The notes beneath the pieces are model-generated. The model saw only the letters and a list, made by a program, of their open reading frames with translations. It ran no database searches and was not told the DNA's origin. Made by a program: the position numbers and the translations under genes. DNA of 60,198 nucleotides from a phage: NCBI GenBank assembly GCA_018175315.1, contig GCA_018175315.1_4769.1, one strand, 5' to 3'. Shown in pieces: positions 8,654 through 52,368 of this stretch. Positions within the stretch are counted from its first letter, which is position 1. Each line of letters begins with the position of its first letter.

Positions 8654-9112
8654 ATGCCAAGGGTCTATACTAAAAAGCCGATGTCCGAAAGACTAAGCAA
8701 ATACGTTATAGACCCTTCTACTGGTTGCTGGAACTGGACTGGTAGTAAGGATAAAGACGGTTACGGTAGAATGATTAGTGGTTCCAAAGGTGAACGAATT
8801 TTTAGTTTTGCGCATCGCGAGAGCTATAAACTGTACAAAGGAGAAATTGGTTTACCTGATTCCGCTACAGGGTGCGTTCTGCATACATGTGATAATCCGT
8901 CTTGCATTAACCCAGATCATTTATATTTAGGAGATCAAAAACAAAACGGGTTGGATAAGAAAGTTAGAGGGAGGGCAAGGACACGTCCACGGTTTGGGAA
9001 AGATAACCCAATGTATCAAAAATATGGTGAACTGAATCCAATGTACGGGAAACATCATACAGAGGAAACCAAACGTAAAATTAGCGAAACTAAGAAAGCT
9101 AATTTTAAATAA
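8654..9112 (+). CDS. HNH homing endonuclease
   Basis: HNH_3-type pattern (GCWNWTGSKDKDGYGRM ... HRESYKLYKG ... CDNPSCINPDHLYLGDQKQN); inserted between folE and dpdA. Confidence 0.7.
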   Translation: MPRVYTKKPMSERLSKYVIDPSTGCWNWTGSKDKDGYGRMISGSKGERIFSFAHRESYKLYKGEIGLPDSATGCVLHTCDNPSCINPDHLYLGDQKQNGLDKKVRGRARTRPRFGKDNPMYQKYGELNPMYGKHHTEETKRKISETKKANFK

Positions 9113-9191: not shown

Positions 9192-10112
9192 ATGAATGTA
9201 TTCATGGCGGCTGTGTATACTAACGGCTATATGCCTGGCCAGCAGCGTTATGAAAAGCTGTCTGAGCATGAGAAAAATATCACGCGCAATCTGCCCCATA
9301 TTTTGGAATCATACCACTACGTTGGGCGTCAGAAGTATGTTGATCAGATGCGTGCGGACGGGGCTAAAGTGTTTCTCGACTCCGGTGCATTCTCCGCGCA
9401 CTCGTTAGGTGCTCACATTGATATTGTTGAATACTGCGAATACATTAAGCGTAACAAAGACATCCTTCGCGTAGAAGATGGTGCGGTGATGGCATCGGTG
9501 CTCGATGGTATCGGTGATCCGCTACAAACCTACCGTAACCAGCTTGAAATGGAAGCACGCGGTGCTAAACCGTTACCTTGCTTTCACTTTGGGGAGGACT
9601 TCCGCTATCTTGAATACTACATGAAGAACTACGAATATATCACCATTGGGGGTATGGTAGGGCGTTCCACGGACACGCTTAAGACTTGGCTTGACCGCAT
9701 GTGGGACAAATATATTTGCGACGGTAGCGGACGTGCTAAGATTAAACTTCATGCGTTTGGTATTACGTCCACAACCATTATGGAGCGTTATCCGTGGTAT
9801 AGCTGCGACTCATCCTCCTGGATACAAGCGGCAGCGTTTGGAAGTGTGGTTACTCCTCCGTGGGGCCCAATGCGCGTATCCGATAAGTCACCGGACCGCC
9901 ATCATTTTGGTAAGCATGTTTCAACGTTAACTGAAATTGAACAAGACGCTGTCCTTAAATACCTTGAGCAAAACGGTTTCACTTACGAACGTTTATCAAC
10001 AATTTATGAATCACGTGCTGCCTTCAATTTATGGGCTTATGGTGTAATTGCTGCAAACATTAACGCTACCCATGACGGCACATTCCGTGATCGTGTAATG
10101 GAGTTGTTCTGA
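9192..10112 (+). CDS. dpdA: DpdA-like 7-deazaguanine DNA transglycosylase (TGT superfamily)
   Basis: TGT-like motifs (FLDSGAFS, LHAFG, YSCDSSSW); adjacent to the preQ0 biosynthesis genes. Confidence 0.8.
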   Translation: MNVFMAAVYTNGYMPGQQRYEKLSEHEKNITRNLPHILESYHYVGRQKYVDQMRADGAKVFLDSGAFSAHSLGAHIDIVEYCEYIKRNKDILRVEDGAVMASVLDGIGDPLQTYRNQLEMEARGAKPLPCFHFGEDFRYLEYYMKNYEYITIGGMVGRSTDTLKTWLDRMWDKYICDGSGRAKIKLHAFGITSTTIMERYPWYSCDSSSWIQAAAFGSVVTPPWGPMRVSDKSPDRHHFGKHVSTLTEIEQDAVLKYLEQNGFTYERLSTIYESRAAFNLWAYGVIAANINATHDGTFRDRVMELF

Positions 10113-10339
10113 TGGCTAACTTAAGAAGACCAAAAGGTAAACGTAAATATACTCACACAGGCGTAAGAATTAATTATTACGGTGAAAACAGAGTAGTATT
10201 TCTCCACAAGACACCTAAGCAGTGGCAGGATCCGTCAGGTACATGGTTTAATGCACAAGGAAAACAAATGGGACTTTATGGATACCCTCCAACCTGTGAA
10301 TTAGATTTAACCACAATTAGAGCAATCGAGGATCGCTAA
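10112..10339 (+). CDS. hypothetical basic protein
   Basis: 75-aa ORF, ATG overlaps dpdA stop. Confidence 0.45.
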   Translation: MANLRRPKGKRKYTHTGVRINYYGENRVVFLHKTPKQWQDPSGTWFNAQGKQMGLYGYPPTCELDLTTIRAIEDR

Positions 10340-11292
10340 TGTTAGACGCTCTTAAATTTGTTCAAGGCTCCGTCGCTAAAAAGGAACTGGTAGAAGGGCT
10401 TACCAGCTTTCTTATCCGTGATGGACAGGTACAGGGCTTTAACGGTGTTATTGCACTGGGTAGTCCTATTGAGCTGGATATTGATTGCAAGCCCGAAGCT
10501 GGGCCTATGATTAAAGCTATTTCAAACTGTGACGAAACCGTACAGTTAACAATGATGGCTAACGGTAAACTTAATATCAAGTCCGGGCCGTTTCGTGTTG
10601 CTATACGCTGCATTGATAAAGAAACGCCGCACGTATTCCCTGAAGGTGATTTATACGAAATAGACGGTGCTCGCTTCGTACACGGTGTGAAGTCCGTTGC
10701 TCCGTTTGTAGGCTCAGATGCATCCCGCCCGTGGGCTTGCGGTATTCTGATTAATAACGGTAGCCTGTTTGCTACAAATAACGTCACCATTGCGGAATAT
10801 TGGTTTGGTAATCAATTCCCTATTGACTGCATAATACCGTCTGTTGCTATTAAAGAAATACTGCGCATTAAAGCTAACCCGACGCATATTCAGGTTAGCA
10901 AGAATAACGTAACGTTTCATTATCCGGAAGGTCGCTGGTTGCGGACACAGCTTATTGATGCGGAATGGCCCGATATACGTCGTATTTTAAATGTTCAATG
11001 CAATGCACATCCTGTTGATCCAGGTCTTTTTGAAGGCTTGCATAAAATTAAACCGTTCGCAGAAGACCGACCGCGTGTATATATTGAAAACGGTCTAGCC
11101 CGTACTCACTATGATGATGCAGAAGGTGCAAGCTTCGTATTACAGGACCGCACAATAACGGGAGTGTACAATATTGACATCCTGCTATTGCTTGAAAATG
11201 TGGTTAAGACGGCGGACTTTAGTTTATATCCGCAACCTTGCGCATTCTTTGGGGAAAATCTTCGCGGTGTATTAATTGGAGAACGTGTCTAA
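10339..11292 (+). CDS. DNA polymerase sliding clamp (DnaN/beta-clamp-like)
   Basis: QLIDAEWPDIRRIL resembles the beta-clamp KLVDGRFPDYRRVLP motif; N-terminus beta-clamp-like; directly upstream of the polymerase. Confidence 0.55.
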   Translation: MLDALKFVQGSVAKKELVEGLTSFLIRDGQVQGFNGVIALGSPIELDIDCKPEAGPMIKAISNCDETVQLTMMANGKLNIKSGPFRVAIRCIDKETPHVFPEGDLYEIDGARFVHGVKSVAPFVGSDASRPWACGILINNGSLFATNNVTIAEYWFGNQFPIDCIIPSVAIKEILRIKANPTHIQVSKNNVTFHYPEGRWLRTQLIDAEWPDIRRILNVQCNAHPVDPGLFEGLHKIKPFAEDRPRVYIENGLARTHYDDAEGASFVLQDRTITGVYNIDILLLLENVVKTADFSLYPQPCAFFGENLRGVLIGERV

Positions 11293-13277
11293 TGCGGACA
11301 GATGCTATTGGTTTCTTTTGGCAGGACTTACCGCCTGAGCCAAAAGCAAAGAAAGAAAAAGTTAAACGTTTACCGCCGGAGCGCACTTGGGAGCGCCCGG
11401 ATTATCTACCTAACCTTGAGGAAGCGCGGAACTTCCAATACAACCTGTATACGCAGGATGAACTTATTCAAGCATGGATTAACCGCGAACCGCTTGTATA
11501 CGATATCGAATGTTATCCAAACTATTTCTTAATTGCATTTCGCGGAGTACGAACTAAGAAAGTTGTCTACTTCGAGATGTATCACGGTTGTAGTTTGAAT
11601 TGCTTGTTACTTAACTGGGTAATGACAAACTTCCTTATCGTAAGCTTTAACGGTAACGGGTACGATATGCCCATTGCTACGCTTGCGCTTAACGGCTGCT
11701 CTAATGCTCAGCTTAAAGATGCAACCGATAAGATAATCGTGGAAGACTGGCGTCCTTCCGATGTGTTAAAGAGTTACCGTCTTAAGCGTATGCAGAACGT
11801 TAACCACATTGATATTATGGAAGTGTTGCCTGGGTCCGGTGGTTTGAAACAATACGGCGGACGTATGCATACTCGCCGTATGCAGGATTTACCGTTCAAG
11901 CCTAATACAATGTTGACGCAAGACCAGATGCTTATTGTGCGATGGTACTGTATTAACGACCTTGTACAGACGGAAGAATGTTTTATTGCATTACAAGAAC
12001 CTTTGCACCTTCGTGAAATTATGTCGCAAGAATACGGTGTGGACCTGCGTTCGCGCTCCGATGCACAAATTGTAGAAGACGTAATTAAGCACGAAATCCA
12101 AGCGTTAACGGGCGTGCGCCCACAGCGTCCGCAAGTTTATCCTGGAACAAAGTATGCATACAACATACCGGACTTTATTCGTTTTCAAACGCCTTTAATG
12201 AATAGTGTTTTGGATATTGTTCGGGACTGTCGCTTTATTGTTAGCGATAACGGTGGTGTTAGCTTACCACCTGCATTAACAGGTCTTGAGATCAAGATTG
12301 CGGACGGTGTCTACCGTATGGGTATTGGTGGTTTGCATAGCTCCGAAGAGTGTGCTGGCCACGGTAAAGAGCCTGGTATCAAAAAGCGGGACATTGACGT
12401 AACGTCTTATTATCCTTCAATCATTCTTAATCAGGGCTTATATCCAGAACAGTTGGGACCAGCGTTCCTTCGTGTTTATAAGAGTATTGTAGATCGTCGT
12501 ATTGCAGCTAAGCACGCAGGGGACAAGAACACAGCCAACACGCTGAAGATCGTCATTAACGGATCGTTCGGTAAGTTGGGGTCCATGTGGTCTGTACTGT
12601 ACGCTCCGCAATTATTGATACAAGTTACATTAACCGGACAGCTTTCACTGTTGATGCTTATTGAAGCATTTGAGTTAAATGGTGTTAAAGTAATTTCGGC
12701 TAACACGGATGGCATTGTGGTTAAGTATCCAGACCACATGCAGGACTTCGTTGATAATATGATCAAGTGGTGGGAGTCTGTGACAGGTTTTGAAATGGAA
12801 TCCACTTATTATGACAAGCTATACAGTGCAAACGTTAACAACTATGTAGCTGTCAAGGAACCTGATGCAGAAGGTAACATTGAAGTCAAGCGTAAAGGTT
12901 GGTTTGCCAAGACAGGTCTTCAAAAGAACTGTACTGGCGAAATCATTATGGAAGCTGTATGTGAATGTTTGGCCCACGGTACGCCTGTTTCTCGTACTAT
13001 ACGCAATTGCAACGATATTAGAAAATTCATTATCCTACGTGCAGTAAAAGGCGGCGCGGTATGGAATGGCGAATTTTTGGGTAAGGTTGTACGCTGGTAT
13101 TTAAGCACCAATGAAGAAACCCCTGAAATAATCTATGCTAACTCAGGCAACCGTGTAGCTGGTAGCTCGGGTGGTGTCCCGATCATGACGCTACCGGATA
13201 AAGTACCGGACGACATAGATTACGACGCTTATATAGCTAAGGCTGAAAAATATCTCGAAGACATGGGATACGCCTAA
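11292..13277 (+). CDS. DNA polymerase with 3'-5' exonuclease domain (family-B-type motifs)
   Basis: Exo motifs YDIECYP and SFNGNGYDMP; polymerase motifs DVTSYYPSII (A), KIVINGSFGKLG (B), ANTDGI (C). ATG 11292 overlaps upstream stop (TAATG); ORF track begins earlier. Confidence 0.75.
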   Translation: MRTDAIGFFWQDLPPEPKAKKEKVKRLPPERTWERPDYLPNLEEARNFQYNLYTQDELIQAWINREPLVYDIECYPNYFLIAFRGVRTKKVVYFEMYHGCSLNCLLLNWVMTNFLIVSFNGNGYDMPIATLALNGCSNAQLKDATDKIIVEDWRPSDVLKSYRLKRMQNVNHIDIMEVLPGSGGLKQYGGRMHTRRMQDLPFKPNTMLTQDQMLIVRWYCINDLVQTEECFIALQEPLHLREIMSQEYGVDLRSRSDAQIVEDVIKHEIQALTGVRPQRPQVYPGTKYAYNIPDFIRFQTPLMNSVLDIVRDCRFIVSDNGGVSLPPALTGLEIKIADGVYRMGIGGLHSSEECAGHGKEPGIKKRDIDVTSYYPSIILNQGLYPEQLGPAFLRVYKSIVDRRIAAKHAGDKNTANTLKIVINGSFGKLGSMWSVLYAPQLLIQVTLTGQLSLLMLIEAFELNGVKVISANTDGIVVKYPDHMQDFVDNMIKWWESVTGFEMESTYYDKLYSANVNNYVAVKEPDAEGNIEVKRKGWFAKTGLQKNCTGEIIMEAVCECLAHGTPVSRTIRNCNDIRKFIILRAVKGGAVWNGEFLGKVVRWYLSTNEETPEIIYANSGNRVAGSSGGVPIMTLPDKVPDDIDYDAYIAKAEKYLEDMGYA

Positions 13278-13287
13278 ATTCTACTTG

Positions 13288-13312
13288 CAGACCCTTCGCG
13301 GGTCTGTTTTAA
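13288..13312 (+). terminator. rho-independent terminator after polymerase gene
   Basis: Stem CAGACCC / GGGTCTG, loop TTCGC, then TTTTAAT. Confidence 0.6.
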
Positions 13313-46974: not shown

Positions 46975-47586
46975 ATGTCTAAAGTAACTCACCGCGAACA
47001 GGACAAAATGCGTTACACCATGAAAACGAATGCACGCCGCGCCCTTAAGACCCGTTGGGGCCAGGTTGCACGCGATGCACACGAGCAGTTAATCCATCAG
47101 GACGAGATCGGTTTTTACATCGTCGAGAAGGAAGTCCTTCAGGTACTGCGCGACCATAAAAAAGCGCAACAACCGGAGCAGAAAGTCCCGGCACCAACCG
47201 CCGCGCCAGCTGCCAGCGTCTCGGTACTGCGCCCGATGGTAAATCCGGAAATCGTCAAAAGCTGCCTCGAAGCTTTGGAGCAGGAGGAAGAGAAAGATAT
47301 GAAACACGCAAAAGCTGCCACGCAGGTTTCTGAAATCAAAATTGAAGAGCCAAAAGCTGCCGCGCCAAAACAGGATGCAAAAGCTGCTCGCTGTGATTTC
47401 AAAAATGGCGCTCGCAAGCCTCTGAAAGGAAAAACTGCCGAAGTGTGGGCAATGGGCGACAAACTTTTAGCCGAACTGGGCCGCACGCCGGAGCTGAAAG
47501 AGATGAAAGCTGCAATGCCTTCTTACAACGGGACAACGGTTGCCATTCAGTTCTACGCTTGGAGAACTTATCATGGACTTAAATAA
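46975..47586 (+). CDS. hypothetical protein
   Basis: AAAGGAG RBS before ATG 46975; 203 aa, charged and Ala/Pro-rich. Confidence 0.55.
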   Translation: MSKVTHREQDKMRYTMKTNARRALKTRWGQVARDAHEQLIHQDEIGFYIVEKEVLQVLRDHKKAQQPEQKVPAPTAAPAASVSVLRPMVNPEIVKSCLEALEQEEEKDMKHAKAATQVSEIKIEEPKAAAPKQDAKAARCDFKNGARKPLKGKTAEVWAMGDKLLAELGRTPELKEMKAAMPSYNGTTVAIQFYAWRTYHGLK

Positions 47587-48055
47587 TATCTTCAGCTATC
47601 AAAACGGAGAATTATTTTGGAAAATAAGACCAGCTAAACAGATTTCTATCGGTAGTAAAGCTGGTGCACCAAATAAGCGCGGATACATCCTGATAGGATA
47701 CAAGGGAAAACTATATCGTCGTTCAAGGTTAGTATGGGAGTTGCATAAAGGCCCGATACCGGAAGGACATCAAATAGACCATATTAACCATTGTACATGG
47801 GACGACCGCATAGAGAATTTGCGCTTAGTGTTGCCAAGCGATAATAGTAAAAATCTTAGCAGGGCAATAAATAACTCTACCGGAGTAACAGGAGTTTACT
47901 TTAATAAAAAGGCATGTAAATTTCAGGCTTACATTCAAATAAACGGATTGAAAAAGTATCTAGGTTTATATGATACTATAGAGGACGCAAAACAGGCCCG
48001 TAAACAAGCGGAAGAGCATTACAAATTTCACGCCAACCACGGACTGGACGCATGA
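47573..48055 (+). CDS. HNH homing endonuclease with AP2-type DNA-binding domain
   Basis: HNH core (GYKGKLYRRSRLVWELHKG ... IDHINHCTWDDRIENLRLV) and AP2-like segment (VTGVYFNKKACKFQAYIQINGLKKYLGLYDTIEDAKQA); GGAG RBS. Confidence 0.7.
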   Translation: MDLNNIFSYQNGELFWKIRPAKQISIGSKAGAPNKRGYILIGYKGKLYRRSRLVWELHKGPIPEGHQIDHINHCTWDDRIENLRLVLPSDNSKNLSRAINNSTGVTGVYFNKKACKFQAYIQINGLKKYLGLYDTIEDAKQARKQAEEHYKFHANHGLDA

Positions 48056-50031: not shown

Positions 50032-52368
50032 ATGGAACTGTTTCCCGCTGAAATTAAAGCTTTCCCACAATGGGCGGTCGCCGATGCGGATAAAAAGCCG
50101 CTCGTATGGGATAACGATATTGGACGTTTGATGGCGGCGGACGTTACCGATCCGGATATGCTTATGACGTTTGAAGCTGCCAAAGGTTGCGCTGCTCATT
50201 TCAATAAACCTTATATTGGATTTGTGCTTACTGCCCAAGACCCGTTCACCTGCATCGATCTGGATGTGAAGAATGCAACCAATGAACCAGACCCCAAGAA
50301 GCACACGACGCCGGAACAGTTGCGCCGCTTCGAACAGATCATGACTGCGTTCGATACTTACACCGAAGTGAGTCGCTCAGGCTTGGGTGTTCACCTGTGG
50401 TTAAGAGGTAACATCGGTAAAGGTCGTCGACGTGATGGTGTCGAGGTTTATAGTCAGGAGCGTTTTATTATCTGCACGGGCAATCCCGTCTACAACAAAC
50501 CAGTTGCAGAACGTGATCATTACCTTACTATGCTTGTGAATGAAATTGATCTTCAGCGCAAGACATATGAAATTGAACTGGTAGAAAAAGATCCGGTAGA
50601 AGATGATGCAACTATTCATCAGCGTGCGCTTGAAGCAGATAACGGCGATAAGTATGCACGGTTATTTAACGGTGAATGGGTTGAAATGGGATTCCCCTCC
50701 CAGTCTGAAGCAGACCTTGCCCTTATTTCCATGTATGCATTCTACACGGAAAGTAATGAGCAATGTCGTCGTCTGTTTCGTTATAGTGCACTGGGAAAAC
50801 GTGAGAAGGCTAATAAGAACAATGTTCATATTGACCGTTGCTTGCGTATGTGTCGAGGTCGCATGGAGCGTGAGCGCATTGCCCAGGAAAACGTAGCGGC
50901 GCTGGCGCGGGATTACGCTGCCCGTATGCAAGCTGCACACAGCACAATGCAGCAGGTAGCGGAAATGCCTGTAACCACAGTCAGCCCGTCTGGTGAAATA
51001 GTAGTTGCAGAAAGTACGTCCATTGATGCAACCGCTATTGAGTGGCCTCCGGGGCTTGCTGGGGAGCTTGCGAAGTACATCTACAAAGCATCGCAACGTC
51101 CCGTGAAAGAAATTGCAATCACCGCATCGTTAGCATTTCTGTCTGGTGTGTGCGGTAAAGTATGGAATACTATCACCAACACAGGGCTGAACGGTTATTT
51201 TGTGCTTATTGCTCGATCTGGTGTGGGTAAAGAGATGCTTCACGCCGGACCCAGCTATATTTGCAAGCAAGTAGGGGAGCAATTACCGCAAGTTCATGAA
51301 TTTGTAGACATGACTAACTATGCGTCCGGTCCTGCATTGCGTAAAAGTTTTGCGGATCATAGTTCGTTTGTGAACATTAACGGAGAGTTTGGCAAAACCA
51401 TCAAAGGTATGGCAACAGCTCAGCCCGGTACTGCAAACTATACTCTGAAGCAAACTATCACAGATGTATATCAAAAATCTGGCGCAATGGATGTTGTTGG
51501 CGGTATTGGATATTCTGATAAGGCTAATAATACCAAAACAATGGAAGGGGTGGCGTTCAGCGTGCTGGGAGAAACAACACCGGACACGTTCTTTGAAGCA
51601 TTAACCCGTGAAATGATGGAAGACGGTTTCTTGTCCCGTTTCCACATTGTGCAATATGAAGGAGATCGAGTTCCTGCAAACGAAAACCCTGAGATTATAA
51701 TGCCCCAGCAGTTGAAGGACATGGTGTGCCATCTTGTTAACCACACCTTAGTAACAATGGCGAAGTTTCAAACGGTCACAGTTCAGTTAAGTCCTGAAGC
51801 TGAAAGGATTGAACGGGAGTTTAACCTGTTATGTGACGAACACATTAACGCAACCAAAGACGAAGCTATCCGTCAGCCGTGGAACCGTGCGCACCTTAAA
51901 GCTCTGCGCCTTGCGTCCCTGCTAGCGGTAGGGGAAAACTGGATCAACCCTGTCGTTCAGCCAAATCACATGCAATGGGCGGTAGATTTTGTTACGCATG
52001 GACAGGACATCATGATCAACGCATGGGAAAAAGGTACTATTGGCGGTGATGATGAAACGCGCGTGAAGGCTATTTGCCAGGTCTGCAAAGACTATCTTGG
52101 CGGTAAGATTGCATGTGATCGTAAGGAGCTGCGCGTTGACGGTATCATCCCGAAGGCAACTATCACACGCAGGACATACGGTCTGGCAGCATTCAAGAAC
52201 CACCGGATGGGGGCAGGTACTGCGACAGACCTGACTATCAAACAACTTGTAGACATGGGCGCGCTCGTTCCAGTCACGCGTGAAGATGCGTTGAAGCGTA
52301 ATTTCAGGGGATTGGGTTGGTATATAGACGAGTCCATTGAGAGTGTTTTCAAGGACTTAAGCAAATAA
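50032..52368 (+). CDS. DNA primase (prim-pol/AEP-type N-terminus with C-terminal ATPase/helicase-like region)
   Basis: AEP motifs FTCIDLDVKN (DxD) and SRSGLGVHLWL (SxH); Walker A-like ARSGVGKE; 778 aa. Confidence 0.65.
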   Translation: MELFPAEIKAFPQWAVADADKKPLVWDNDIGRLMAADVTDPDMLMTFEAAKGCAAHFNKPYIGFVLTAQDPFTCIDLDVKNATNEPDPKKHTTPEQLRRFEQIMTAFDTYTEVSRSGLGVHLWLRGNIGKGRRRDGVEVYSQERFIICTGNPVYNKPVAERDHYLTMLVNEIDLQRKTYEIELVEKDPVEDDATIHQRALEADNGDKYARLFNGEWVEMGFPSQSEADLALISMYAFYTESNEQCRRLFRYSALGKREKANKNNVHIDRCLRMCRGRMERERIAQENVAALARDYAARMQAAHSTMQQVAEMPVTTVSPSGEIVVAESTSIDATAIEWPPGLAGELAKYIYKASQRPVKEIAITASLAFLSGVCGKVWNTITNTGLNGYFVLIARSGVGKEMLHAGPSYICKQVGEQLPQVHEFVDMTNYASGPALRKSFADHSSFVNINGEFGKTIKGMATAQPGTANYTLKQTITDVYQKSGAMDVVGGIGYSDKANNTKTMEGVAFSVLGETTPDTFFEALTREMMEDGFLSRFHIVQYEGDRVPANENPEIIMPQQLKDMVCHLVNHTLVTMAKFQTVTVQLSPEAERIEREFNLLCDEHINATKDEAIRQPWNRAHLKALRLASLLAVGENWINPVVQPNHMQWAVDFVTHGQDIMINAWEKGTIGGDDETRVKAICQVCKDYLGGKIACDRKELRVDGIIPKATITRRTYGLAAFKNHRMGAGTATDLTIKQLVDMGALVPVTREDALKRNFRGLGWYIDESIESVFKDLSK

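What the first reader, a model, noticed from the sequence alone, without database searches (positions are those of the whole stretch)
10339..13277. Bacterial-type beta-clamp-like protein paired with a family-B-type DNA polymerase
The 317-aa protein upstream of the polymerase carries QLIDAEWPDIRRIL, closely resembling the DnaN motif KLVDGRFPDYRRVLP. The polymerase shows family-B motifs (DVTSYYPSII, KIVINGSFGKLG, NTDG) rather than family-A ones. A phage encoding its own beta-type clamp alongside a B-family polymerase is an uncommon replisome combination.
Basis: partly seen in the sequence, partly recalled or inferred. Interest (0 to 1): 0.45.

Follow-up and report, generated by a model that had tools for sequence, protein, structure and literature searches.

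The report
Phage sliding clamp with family-B polymerase
This coliphage carries its own bacterial-type DNA sliding clamp next to a family-B DNA polymerase, a pair already annotated in close relatives, and conserved end-peptides suggest the clamp holds both the polymerase and the neighbouring DNA-modifying enzyme DpdA.

Summary
Window 10339-11292 encodes a 317-aa protein whose AlphaFold model (pLDDT 93) matches only bacterial DnaN beta clamps. Window 11292-13277 encodes a 661-aa polymerase whose model and profile match only family-B polymerases.

The window is a Seuratvirus (CAjan-like coliphage, about 95% nt identity). GenBank, PHROGs and the Vid5 paper already call this pair "DNA polymerase B" plus "beta subunit/processivity factor". 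The pairing is therefore known and common in metagenomes, though I found no biochemical study.

- **Polymerase tether (inferred).** There is no C-terminal clamp-binding motif. An invariant, predicted-disordered N-terminal peptide (R-x-D-x-x-G-[FLM]-F-W-x-D) with a basic linker is present instead. It is absent from the clampless sister clade and recurs on unrelated family-A polymerases that sit beside the same clamp. Basal relatives carry a canonical C-terminal QxxLF instead.
- **Clamp loader.** None is detected. The clamp is acidic, so loading by the host is inferred.
- **DpdA.** The upstream gene, translationally coupled, ends in a canonical clamp-binding peptide (…QELF-COOH; here VMELF). DpdA genes lie beside beta-clamp genes across very diverse phages.

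As stated, the finding is ordinary. The clamp-as-hub reading is the interesting and untested part.

The parts
9192..10112 (+). DpdA (DNA 7-deazaguanine transglycosylase), 306 aa. It is the first gene of the translationally coupled run DpdA|orf75|clamp|pol.
   Evidence: PHROG 887, E 8e-96. 100% identical to CAjan DpdA. The stop overlaps the next start as TGATG.
10095..10109 (+). DpdA extreme C-terminus V-M-E-L-F-COOH, a candidate canonical beta-clamp-binding peptide.
   Evidence: 46 of 59 unique homologues from clamp-bearing loci end in [LMF]F-COOH, against 0.54% of background ORFs. Positions -4 and -3 are Q (29/46) and E (33/46), after a low-information linker.
10112..10339 (+). 75-aa ORF of unknown function between DpdA and the clamp. 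It is not a conserved part of the module.
   Evidence: PHROG 38388 only. Homologue found in 2 of 78 clamp loci.
10339..11292 (+). Beta-type (DnaN-like) sliding-clamp protomer, 317 aa, three domains, acidic (pI 5.56).
   Evidence: AF2 pLDDT 93.3. Foldseek top 50 hits are all DnaN clamps, E to 6e-21, TM 0.77-0.85. PHROG 947 "processivity factor", E 5e-82. pI.
10948..10989 (+). W210 and P211 are invariant. It aligns to E. coli beta FPDYRRVL (P242, R246, V247 of the peptide-binding pocket).
11292..13277 (+). Family-B DNA polymerase with 3'-5' exonuclease domain, 661 aa. The ATG overlaps the clamp stop (TAATG).
   Evidence: AF2 pLDDT 90.2. Foldseek top 50 hits are all family-B polymerases. Profile against PDB hits only PolBs. 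PHROG 1252, E 2e-228.
11295..11327 (+). Polymerase N-terminal peptide RTDAIGFFWQD (aa 2-12), the candidate clamp tether. Family pattern: R-x-D-x-x-G-[FLM]-F-W-x-D.
   Evidence: R2, D4, G7 and W10 are 50/50, F9 is 49/50, D12 is 47/50. pLDDT is below 50 for residues 1-13. Unique in the window. Absent from the clampless clade. Present on family-A polymerases beside the same clamp.
11328..11426 (+). Basic/proline-rich linker and conserved W-x-R-P-D-Y-L-P segment (aa 13-45), joining the N-terminal peptide to the exonuclease domain.
   Evidence: pLDDT rises from 58 to 87 across this stretch. A similar W..P.YLP.L segment occurs in family-A relatives.
11499..11516 (+). ExoI motif YDIECY (D71 and E73 invariant). 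ExoII SFNGNGYD is at 11643-11666. ExoIII YCINDL is at 11946-11963.
12396..12425 (+). Polymerase motif A, DVTSYYPSII (D369, S372, Y374, P375 invariant).
12546..12581 (+). Polymerase motif B, KIVINGSFGKLG (K419, N423, G424, G427, K428 invariant).
12696..12713 (+). Polymerase motif C, SANTDG. The first Asp of the canonical DTD is Asn, invariant across the family.
   Evidence: Context on motif C variants from PMC7544198.

Best explanation
Window 10339-13277 is the replicase core of a Seuratvirus (Queuovirinae) coliphage. It comprises a phage-encoded three-domain beta-type sliding clamp and a proofreading family-B DNA polymerase. Both genes are translated from one coupled message that begins with DpdA.

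Shown: both folds, the gene order and overlaps, the conservation of the pair, and the absence of any recognisable clamp loader in the genome.

Inferred: (a) The clamp forms a DnaN-like head-to-tail dimer ring that encircles DNA and makes the polymerase processive. (b) The polymerase is tethered by its invariant, disordered N-terminal peptide R-x-D-x-x-G-[FLM]-F-W-x-D on a basic linker, not by a C-terminal motif. The peptide would bind the hydrophobic pocket between clamp domains II and III, whose E. coli counterparts (R152, Y154, T172, P242, R246, V247) map to conserved R130, W132, T146, P211, R215, I216. (c) The clamp is acidic like loader-dependent rings, so it is most likely loaded by the host gamma-complex clamp loader. 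(d) DpdA ends in a canonical clamp-binding peptide and probably uses the same clamp, which would couple 7-deazaguanine insertion to newly replicated DNA.
For: Clamp fold: the AF2 model has pLDDT 93.3 and pTM 0.87, with six main helices in a three-fold repeat. The Foldseek top 50 hits are all DnaN clamps at E 6e-21 to 2e-18 and TM 0.77-0.85 over about 360 columns. The family profile hits DnaN chains. TIGR00663 scores E 2e-8.

Polymerase fold.

Known relatives: 35 phage genomes share 94-96% nt identity and are annotated polymerase B plus beta subunit.

Synteny: 73 of 80 loci retrieved with the polymerase carry the clamp upstream on the same strand, usually immediately. The clamp stop and polymerase start lie within 5 nt in 40 of 73.

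N-terminal peptide: it is invariant and predicted disordered. Among 130 unique PolBs with enough flank, the counts are extension plus clamp 69, neither 57, and discordant 4. Independent replication comes from family-A polymerases. VpKK5 (Pfam DNA_pol_A, E 4e-68) and Variovorax VPv64 carry MSRFDAIGMFWED / RFDAIGMFWED next to the same clamp; PSASB_03 has the same N-terminus on a polymerase whose family I did not check. Five further PolA lineages do the same.

Motif position swap: basal clamp-associated PolBs that lack the canonical N-terminal peptide end in canonical motifs, namely KQIGLF, KQLKFF and EQITFF.

Pocket residues are conserved.

No loader: the Walker-A scan finds only the large terminase and Sak4. 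Pfam and PHROGs on the rest of the replication module find none.

Acidic clamp: pI 5.56 here and 4.8-6.8 in 73 relatives. Kazlauskas & Venclovas associate acidic pI with ring clamps that need loaders (PMC3201878).

DpdA.
Against: Within PolB, the link between clamp and N-terminal extension reduces to about two evolutionary events on an NJ tree, so the Fisher p of 5e-32 greatly overstates independence. The peptide departs from the QL[SD]LF consensus: it has no Gln, an extra invariant Trp, and flanking Arg/Asp. It could bind another partner. One locus (L066) has an extension but no clamp within 6 kb. Host loading is pure inference. Both proteins score far below the curated cut-offs of the cellular families. 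CAjan with dpdA deleted is viable (PMC6884629), so any DpdA-clamp link is not needed for replication.
Confidence: 0.78

Rival explanations
1. The clamp is chiefly a platform for DpdA and DNA hypermodification rather than a polymerase processivity factor. The polymerase would work without it, as its clampless sister clade does.
For: DpdA lies directly upstream of the clamp in 68 of 78 clamp loci and in 0 of 82 clampless loci. DpdA ends in a canonical clamp-binding peptide. In a broad DpdA sample, 61 of 71 loci hold a beta clamp within 10 kb, whichever polymerase family is present. Clampless PolBs of 42-58% identity evidently replicate genomes of similar size.
Against: Clamp plus polymerase occurs without DpdA in Rosemountvirus SPLA9, Sphingomonas phage Kimi and Erwinia phage RF1. 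The clamp and polymerase genes overlap. The polymerase carries its own clamp-correlated terminal motifs. CAjan without dpdA is viable.
Confidence: 0.1
2. The N-terminal polymerase peptide binds a different replisome partner (primase-helicase, SSB, or DNA through the basic linker), and the polymerase contacts the clamp elsewhere or not at all.
For: The peptide is not a consensus QL[SD]LF motif. Its correlation with the clamp within PolB is mostly a single clade split. The clamp-bearing phages sampled share a conserved primase, SF2 helicase, Sak4 and DUF669 module, which could equally co-vary with the peptide.
Against: The same peptide is found on unrelated family-A polymerases exactly where the same clamp is adjacent. 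Basal PolBs swap it for a canonical C-terminal QxxLF. Divergent clamps go with divergent short aromatic N-termini such as MSFLFD, MFFDDE and MLFSDF.
Confidence: 0.15
3. The 317-aa protein is a non-ring processivity factor that binds DNA directly, like herpesvirus UL42/UL44, which would explain the missing clamp loader.
For: No loader is detected. This solution has been proposed for loaderless viral clamps (PMC3201878). The protomer is about 50 aa shorter than DnaN.
Against: The clamps are uniformly acidic (pI 4.8-6.8, none basic), which is the signature of ring clamps in that same analysis. The full three-domain half-ring geometry is retained (TM 0.83 to E. coli beta).
Confidence: 0.08
4. The clamp is a host-takeover device: a decoy that sequesters the host clamp loader or clamp-binding proteins to shut down host replication.
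For: The peptide-binding pocket is conserved. There is no phage loader, so the host loader would be engaged anyway.
Against: Tight translational coupling and co-inheritance with the phage's own polymerase point to a replicative role. Nothing specific supports a decoy role.
Confidence: 0.03

Closest known systems
CAjan gp33/gp32, phage 9g and Pantoea phage Vid5 ORF30/ORF29 (Queuovirinae beta subunit plus PolB)
   Same: The same genes. The region is 94-96% nt identical to Seuratvirus genomes, with the same order DpdA-clamp-PolB. For Vid5 the clamp was assigned to DnaN by HHpred (100% probability, 3T0P; PMC6266253).
   Different: Nothing substantive. Those reports stop at annotation. The papers I could search describe no tether motif, no loader question and no link to DpdA.
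E. coli DNA polymerase II with the beta clamp (DnaN)
   Same: A family-B polymerase working with a beta-type dimeric clamp through a short terminal peptide in the domain II/III pocket (established knowledge; Pol II structures hit). Basal relatives of this phage polymerase end in QIGLF, close to Pol II's QLGLF.
   Different: Pol II is a cellular repair polymerase whose motif is C-terminal, and its clamp is loaded by a cognate gamma complex. Here the polymerase is the phage replicase, the candidate motif is N-terminal and non-canonical, and the clamp is only 15-17% identical to DnaN, 50 aa shorter and without a cognate loader.
T4/RB69 gp43 polymerase, gp45 clamp and gp44/62 loader
   Same: A phage family-B replicase tethered to its own sliding clamp by a terminal peptide.
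   Different: gp45 is a two-domain, PCNA-like trimer with a dedicated loader. Here the clamp is a three-domain DnaN-like protomer and no loader is present.
Other phage-encoded DnaN homologues (Streptococcus phage Dp-1 gp10 with DnaX/HolA; Ma-LMM01 and RSL1 with PolA plus a gamma homologue; Bacillus phage 0305phi8-36)
   Same: Beta-type clamps encoded by phages (PMC3201878; Dp-1 annotation).
   Different: Those are paired with family-A or family-C polymerases, and mostly with phage loader subunits. Where no loader is present, the clamp is basic and predicted not to form a ring. The clamp here is acidic, loaderless and paired with PolB.
Eukaryotic DNMT1-PCNA (PIP-box) coupling of DNA modification to replication. 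This is an analogy for the DpdA reading only.
   Same: A DNA-modifying enzyme carrying a short clamp-binding peptide so that modification follows the fork (my own knowledge).
   Different: The clamp family, enzyme chemistry (base exchange versus methylation) and domain of life all differ. The DpdA-clamp contact is untested.

Membership tests
Beta-type (DnaN/Pol III beta) sliding-clamp superfamily | Three tandem clamp domains forming a half-ring protomer | tested here: met
   AF2 pLDDT 93.3 with a three-fold repeat of secondary structure. Foldseek TM 0.77-0.85 over about 360 aligned columns to DnaN chains. No other fold appears among the top 50 hits.
Beta-type (DnaN/Pol III beta) sliding-clamp superfamily | Detectable sequence homology to DnaN | tested here: met
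   Profile against PDB: DnaN from three species at E 5e-5 to 2e-3. hhalign to E. coli beta gives 84% probability. TIGR00663 scores E 2e-8.
Beta-type (DnaN/Pol III beta) sliding-clamp superfamily | Head-to-tail homodimer closing a ring around DNA | not testable with these tools
   No multimer prediction was available. The acidic pI is indirect support only.
Beta-type (DnaN/Pol III beta) sliding-clamp superfamily | Hydrophobic peptide-binding pocket between domains II and III | tested here: inconclusive
   Counterparts of R152, Y154, T172, P242, R246 and V247 are conserved as R130, W132, T146, P211, R215 and I216. The mapping rests on a low-identity alignment. The C-terminal strand (GxR) was not aligned.
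Cellular DnaN orthologue (NCBIfam TIGR00663 equivalog; Pfam DNA_pol3_beta_1/2/3) | Score above the curated family cut-off | tested here: not met
   TIGR00663 scores 33.6 bits against a cut-off of 137.65. Pfam DNA_pol3_beta_2 scores 22.3 bits against 27, and no other beta domains are detected. The protein is a distant phage-specific branch (PHROG 947), not a DnaN orthologue.
Family-B DNA polymerases (RNA/DNA-primed) | PolB fold: exonuclease, palm, fingers and thumb | tested here: met
   AF2 pLDDT 90.2. Foldseek top 50 hits are all family-B polymerases at E 1e-15 to 6e-13. TM is about 0.45, reflecting domain-orientation differences.
Family-B DNA polymerases (RNA/DNA-primed) | Exo I/II/III and polymerase motifs A, B, C | tested here: met
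   D71/E73; N120/D125; Y219/D223; D369xxSYYP; K419xxxNGSFG; and NTD473G, all invariant in 40 homologues. Motif C has Asn in place of the first Asp. That substitution is tolerated in other active PolBs (PMC7544198).
Family-B DNA polymerases (RNA/DNA-primed) | Not family A | tested here: met
   No family-A hit in Pfam, NCBIfam, PDB sequence search or fold search. By contrast, the VpKK5 enzyme hits Pfam DNA_pol_A at E 4e-68.
Family-B DNA polymerases (RNA/DNA-primed) | Pfam DNA_pol_B (PF00136) membership | tested here: not met
   No PF00136 hit at E <= 0.1. Only PF10108 appears, below threshold. The homologues listed carry no precomputed Pfam domain. The family is too divergent for the Pfam model.
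Clamp-binding-motif clients of the beta clamp (QL[SD]LF / QxxLF class) | Short, terminal or disordered, conserved hydrophobic peptide | tested here: met
   Polymerase aa 2-12 are invariant and have pLDDT below 50. DpdA's last four residues are highly conserved after a variable linker.
Clamp-binding-motif clients of the beta clamp (QL[SD]LF / QxxLF class) | Match to the consensus Q-L-x-L-F | tested here: inconclusive
   The DpdA family (QELF, QMGLF, QLGLF) fits, as do the basal PolB C-termini (QIGLF, QLKFF). The window's DpdA has M in place of Q (VMELF). The polymerase N-terminal AIGFFW fits only the x-[LI]-G-Φ-F core.
Clamp-binding-motif clients of the beta clamp (QL[SD]LF / QxxLF class) | Physical binding to the clamp pocket | not testable with these tools
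   Needs a multimer model, ITC, pull-down or a co-structure.
Complete clamp/loader/polymerase replicase | Cognate AAA+ clamp loader encoded alongside | tested here: not met
   The only Walker-A ORFs are the large terminase and Sak4/AAA_24. PHROGs and Pfam on the remaining replication-module ORFs find no loader. The CAjan annotation lists none.

The most novel reading that the evidence does not exclude
The phage beta clamp is a private hub shared by two clients encoded on either side of it. One is the replicase, held by a non-canonical N-terminal peptide that moves between family-B and family-A polymerases. The other is the DNA transglycosylase DpdA, held by a canonical C-terminal QxLF peptide. 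7-Deazaguanine (dPreQ0) insertion would then be physically coupled to the replication fork. This would be a bacterial-virus counterpart of DNMT1-PCNA. It would also give a function to the DnaN homologues that sit next to DpdA in many phages, possibly including clamps with no polymerase detected nearby.
Probability: 0.45. Interest if true: 0.72.

Novelty: already known. Interest (0 to 1): 0.38.

Why it matters
As stated, the finding adds nothing new. A beta-type clamp next to a PolB is the annotated replicase of the Seuratvirus/Queuovirinae phages, and the window is a near-identical member.

The follow-up makes three points directly testable in a tractable coliphage, since CAjan is genetically editable.

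- **Loading.** How does a ring-type clamp with no cognate loader get onto DNA?
- **Tether.** Can a polymerase be tethered through an N-terminal peptide that is portable between family-A and family-B enzymes?
- **Modification.** Does the DNA-hypermodifying enzyme DpdA ride on the sliding clamp? This would explain how roughly a third of guanines are exchanged post-replicatively without the DpdB ATPase used in the bacterial Dpd system (my own knowledge). It would also explain why DpdA and DnaN-like genes are neighbours across very diverse phages.

Tried and rejected
1. **C-terminal motif on the window's polymerase.** The end (…AEKYLEDMGYA) has no such motif. The family consensus there is DYDxYIxEAEKxLxDxGY, which is also conserved in the clampless clade.

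2. **Internal GQLSLLML (aa 449-456).** It looks like QLSLF but lies within a long, high-confidence helix (aa 439-462). It is conserved as GQLALLML in clampless polymerases too. I rejected it as a tether.

3. **Primase-helicase N-terminus MELF.** It echoes DpdA's C-terminal MELF but is not conserved in BcepGomr, VpKK5 or RHEph06. I treat it as chance.

4. **The 75-aa ORF between DpdA and the clamp.** I considered it as a module component or loader. It occurs in only 2 of 78 loci.

5. **Phage clamp loader.** None was found by the Walker-A scan, Pfam or PHROGs. VpKK5 has an AAA ATPase (orf18). I ran no homology search with it, but the scans above found no comparable ATPase in the window.

6. **Fisher test on clamp versus N-terminal extension (p = 5e-32).** I down-weighted it after an NJ tree showed only two state changes. 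Independent support came from family-A polymerases instead.

7. **An alternative processivity factor upstream of clampless polymerases.** Their neighbours are heterogeneous and include an SSB-like protein, a Cas4-like nuclease and a dCMP-deaminase-like protein (my reading of the sequences). None is consistent.

8. **Curated cellular models.** Pfam and NCBIfam do not reach threshold for either protein. Structure and profile searches were needed.

9. **Placing the polymerase in the Kazlauskas 2020 PolB groups.** The main text does not name this group, and I did not consult the supplements.


Full report
**1. What the window is**

Megablast of 10100-13300 finds 35 phage genomes, all covering the full query. 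Thirty-four are 90-96% identical and one falls in the 80-90% band. They include SLUR75, Dru_SM1 and CAjan. CAjan is a Seuratvirus of the Queuovirinae, about 60 kb. The 60,198-base window is therefore probably close to a complete genome of this genus.

The region of interest lies at the end of the early/replication strand. The gene order is QueD, FolE, an HNH endonuclease, DpdA (9192-10112), a 75-aa ORF (10112-10339), the clamp-like ORF (10339-11292) and the polymerase (11292-13277). The last four genes overlap by TGATG or TAATG, which indicates translational coupling.

**2. Checking the observation**

The stated coordinates are exact for the clamp ORF and for the polymerase stop. The longest polymerase frame starts at TTG 11238. 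The conserved start is ATG 11292, as annotated in CAjan and as the alignment of 40 homologues shows.

**3. The 317-aa protein is a beta-type clamp**

- **Curated libraries barely see it.** Pfam DNA_pol3_beta_2 scores 22.3 bits against a cut-off of 27. TIGR00663 scores 33.6 bits against 137.65.
- **PHROG 947** ("DNA polymerase processivity factor") matches end to end at E 5e-82.
- **Sequence against PDB.** phmmer aligns residues 155-224 to E. coli beta 183-255. A 40-sequence profile hits DnaN from three species.
- **Structure.** The AlphaFold2 model has pLDDT 93.3 and pTM 0.87, with three repeats of the clamp domain. In Foldseek against PDB the 50 best hits are all DnaN clamps, at E 6e-21 to 2e-18 and TM 0.77-0.85 over about 360 columns, with 12-17% identity.

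The protein is a distant phage branch and not a DnaN orthologue.

That stretch holds P242, R246 and V247 of the peptide-binding pocket (pocket residues are my own knowledge). Other pocket residues map to conserved positions R130, W132 and T146. This mapping carries 84% hhalign probability.

**4. The polymerase is family B**

- phmmer and profile searches of PDB return only family-B enzymes: S. solfataricus PolB1 at 7e-8, E. coli Pol II at 1e-5, and Pol alpha.
- NCBIfam gives only PolB models, all far below cut-off.
- The AF2 model has pLDDT 90.2. Its Foldseek top 50 are all family-B polymerases.
- Exo I-III and motifs A, B and C are invariant in the family.
- Motif C reads SANTDG. The first Asp of DTD is Asn. 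Kazlauskas et al. note that primer-independent PolBs lack the first Asp yet polymerise efficiently (PMC7544198).
- Pfam's DNA_pol_B model misses the family entirely.

The genome also encodes an AEP-type primase fused to a DUF3987 domain (annotated DNA primase/helicase in PHROGs), an SF2 helicase, RNase H and a ligase. This fits RNA-primed replication.

**5. Is the combination unusual?**

In 2011 only twelve phages were known to carry Pol III beta homologues (PMC3201878). That is no longer the picture.

- The clamp profile finds 2971 50%-identity clusters at E <= 1e-3 and 862 at E <= 1e-30.
- The polymerase has at least 7955 90%-identity clusters.
- GenBank records for CAjan, the SLUR phages, slur01 (whose annotation cites phage 9g), BcepGomr and RHEph06 already name the pair.
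- The Vid5 paper reports polB followed by a beta subunit, with HHpred probability 100% to 3T0P (PMC6266253).
- A beta clamp serving a family-B polymerase also has a cellular precedent in E. coli Pol II (my own knowledge).

The pairing is real and under-studied. It is neither new nor rare.

**6. How the polymerase may be tethered**

There is none (…AEKYLEDMGYA).

The first 12 residues are the most conserved short stretch outside the catalytic motifs. In 50 unique homologues R2, D4, G7 and W10 are invariant. Position 8 is F, L or M in 49 of 50. F9 is 49 of 50 and D12 is 47 of 50. Residues 1-13 are predicted disordered, with pLDDT below 50. A Lys/Pro-rich linker follows. The core x-I-G-F-F resembles the Pol II motif Q-L-G-L-F.

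Four comparisons bear on its function.

- **(a) Sister clade.** Of 130 unique PolB homologues with enough flanking DNA, 69 have both the extension and an upstream clamp and 57 have neither. One has the extension only. Three have a clamp with a different N-terminus. An NJ tree shows that this is essentially one clade split, with two state changes. It counts as roughly one event.
- **(b) Independent replication in family A.** Vibrio phage VpKK5, also a Queuovirinae member, has DpdA, the same clamp (E 1e-128) and a family-A polymerase (Pfam DNA_pol_A, E 4e-68). That polymerase starts MSRFDAIGMFWED. Variovorax VPv64 and five metagenomic PolA lineages do the same. PSASB_03 has the same N-terminus on a polymerase whose family I did not check.
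- **(c) Divergent clamps.** Rosemountvirus SPLA9, Sphingomonas phage Kimi and Erwinia phage RF1 have divergent clamps. Their PolAs begin MSFLFD, MFFDDE and (M)LFSDF, each followed by a basic linker.
- **(d) Motif swap.** The basal clamp-associated PolBs that lack the canonical N-terminus end instead in canonical motifs after a short basic linker: …KPKQIGLF, …TEKQLKFF and …KKPEQITFF.

Taken together, these make a clamp tether the best reading of the N-terminal peptide. No physical test was possible.

**7. The missing loader**

The only Walker-A ORFs are the large terminase and Sak4. Pfam and PHROGs on the remaining replication-module ORFs, and the CAjan annotation, show no AAA+ loader.

The clamp is acidic: pI 5.56 here, and 4.8-6.8 in 73 relatives with none basic. 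Kazlauskas and Venclovas associate acidic pI with closed rings that need loaders, and basic pI with loader-independent DNA binders.

I therefore infer loading by the host gamma complex. This would be consistent with the retained pocket, which is where the delta subunit binds beta (my own knowledge). It is the weakest step in the model.

**8. Noticed on the way: DpdA**

DpdA inserts preQ0 into DNA. In CAjan it is required for replacement of about 32% of G residues, yet it is dispensable for growth (PMC6884629). In the window it ends …RDRVMELF-COOH.

*Within the PolB-derived loci:*
- A DpdA homologue is present in 68 of 78 clamp-bearing loci, almost always directly upstream of the clamp. It is present in 0 of 82 clampless loci.
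- 46 of 59 unique DpdAs end exactly in [LMF]F, against 0.54% of 2573 background ORFs.
- The typical ending is [IV]-Q-E-L-F. Variants include QMGLF and QLGLF, the latter identical to the Pol II motif.
- The last four residues carry the highest information, after a variable linker.

*In a broader sample* of 71 unique DpdAs from IMG/VR, with 26-99% identity to the Dp-1 enzyme:
- 61 have a beta-clamp gene within 10 kb. Of these, 33 are with PolA, 20 with PolB, and 8 have no polymerase in view.
- 51 have a clamp-binding-like C-terminus, against 3.4% of background ORFs.

*Individual phages:*
- Dp-1's DpdA ends QRRLF, and its DnaN gene lies two genes away.
- The mycobacteriophage DpdAs of Arbiter and Nadezda sit by the terminase and lack the motif. 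I did not search their full genomes for a clamp.

Clamp plus polymerase also exists without DpdA, as in Rosemountvirus. The clamp is therefore first a polymerase partner, and DpdA looks like a second client.

I found no paper linking DpdA to a sliding clamp. One paper notes only that the deazaguanine genes lie next to the polymerase genes in Queuovirinae, and states that DpdA acts post-replication (PMC10484667).

**9. Verdict**

The finding as written is ordinary.

The added value is inferential and has three parts: a portable N-terminal tether, a loaderless acidic ring, and DpdA as a probable clamp client. The last of these is the most novel reading. I put it at a little under even odds pending a binding test.

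Noticed in passing
window 9192-10112 (C-terminus at 10095-10109); loci L002-L081 and L178-L257: DpdA ends in a canonical beta-clamp-binding peptide (…QELF-COOH in the family, VMELF here). DpdA genes sit next to beta-clamp genes in 68 of 78 PolB-clamp loci and in 61 of 71 loci of a very diverse DpdA sample. I found no paper linking DpdA to a sliding clamp.
   Followed up: yes
L164:21883-23919 (Vibrio phage VpKK5); also L171, L213, L229, L246, L253, L256: In some relatives (VpKK5 is itself a Queuovirinae member) the PolB is replaced by a family-A polymerase. It keeps the same N-terminal RxDxxG[FLM]FWx[DE] peptide, a basic linker and a W..P.YLP.L segment, next to the same clamp. The N-terminal module therefore appears portable between polymerase families.
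   Followed up: partly
L051, L064, L078 (polymerase C-termini); L077: Basal clamp-associated PolBs lack the canonical N-terminal peptide. They carry canonical C-terminal clamp-binding motifs instead (KQLKFF, KQIGLF, EQITFF; possibly GPLFA in L077).
   Followed up: partly
window 12696-12713: Polymerase motif C is SANTDG. The first Asp of the canonical DTD is Asn, invariant across 40 homologues, including the clampless clade.
   Followed up: partly
window 8654-9112: An HNH/NUMOD3 homing-endonuclease ORF (152 aa) sits between FolE and DpdA. CAjan has only a 68-aa hypothetical gene at that position. A second HNH ORF lies at 47540-48055.
   Followed up: no
L170:7938-9932 (Pseudomonas phage M6); L169:7998-9863 (DSL-LC04): Clampless family-A relatives begin MSYLQPPLFTT… and …MSLFPTT…. 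These are QxxLF-like peptides at the N-terminus and might engage the host beta clamp.
   Followed up: no
L174 (Cellulophaga phage phi47:1): 11965-12618, 12628-13350, 15872-16954: The small DpdA type has no C-terminal motif. The ORF just upstream (gp53) ends NQVNLF-COOH. A DnaN homologue follows the Que cluster, and no polymerase is annotated in the 33 kb inspected.
   Followed up: no
L066:5908-7944: One PolB has an N-terminal extension (…LDLFWWEE…) but no clamp homologue within 6 kb on either side. It is the only such discordant locus.
   Followed up: no
window 50032-50043: The primase-helicase starts MELF, echoing DpdA's C-terminal MELF. This is not conserved in BcepGomr, VpKK5 or RHEph06 and is probably chance.
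   Followed up: yes
window, whole (GC-skew sign changes near 15-16 kb and 50 kb): Cumulative GC skew reverses where gene orientation switches between the replication/modification strand and the structural/lysis strand. This matches the bidirectional genome layout described for Queuovirinae.
   Followed up: no
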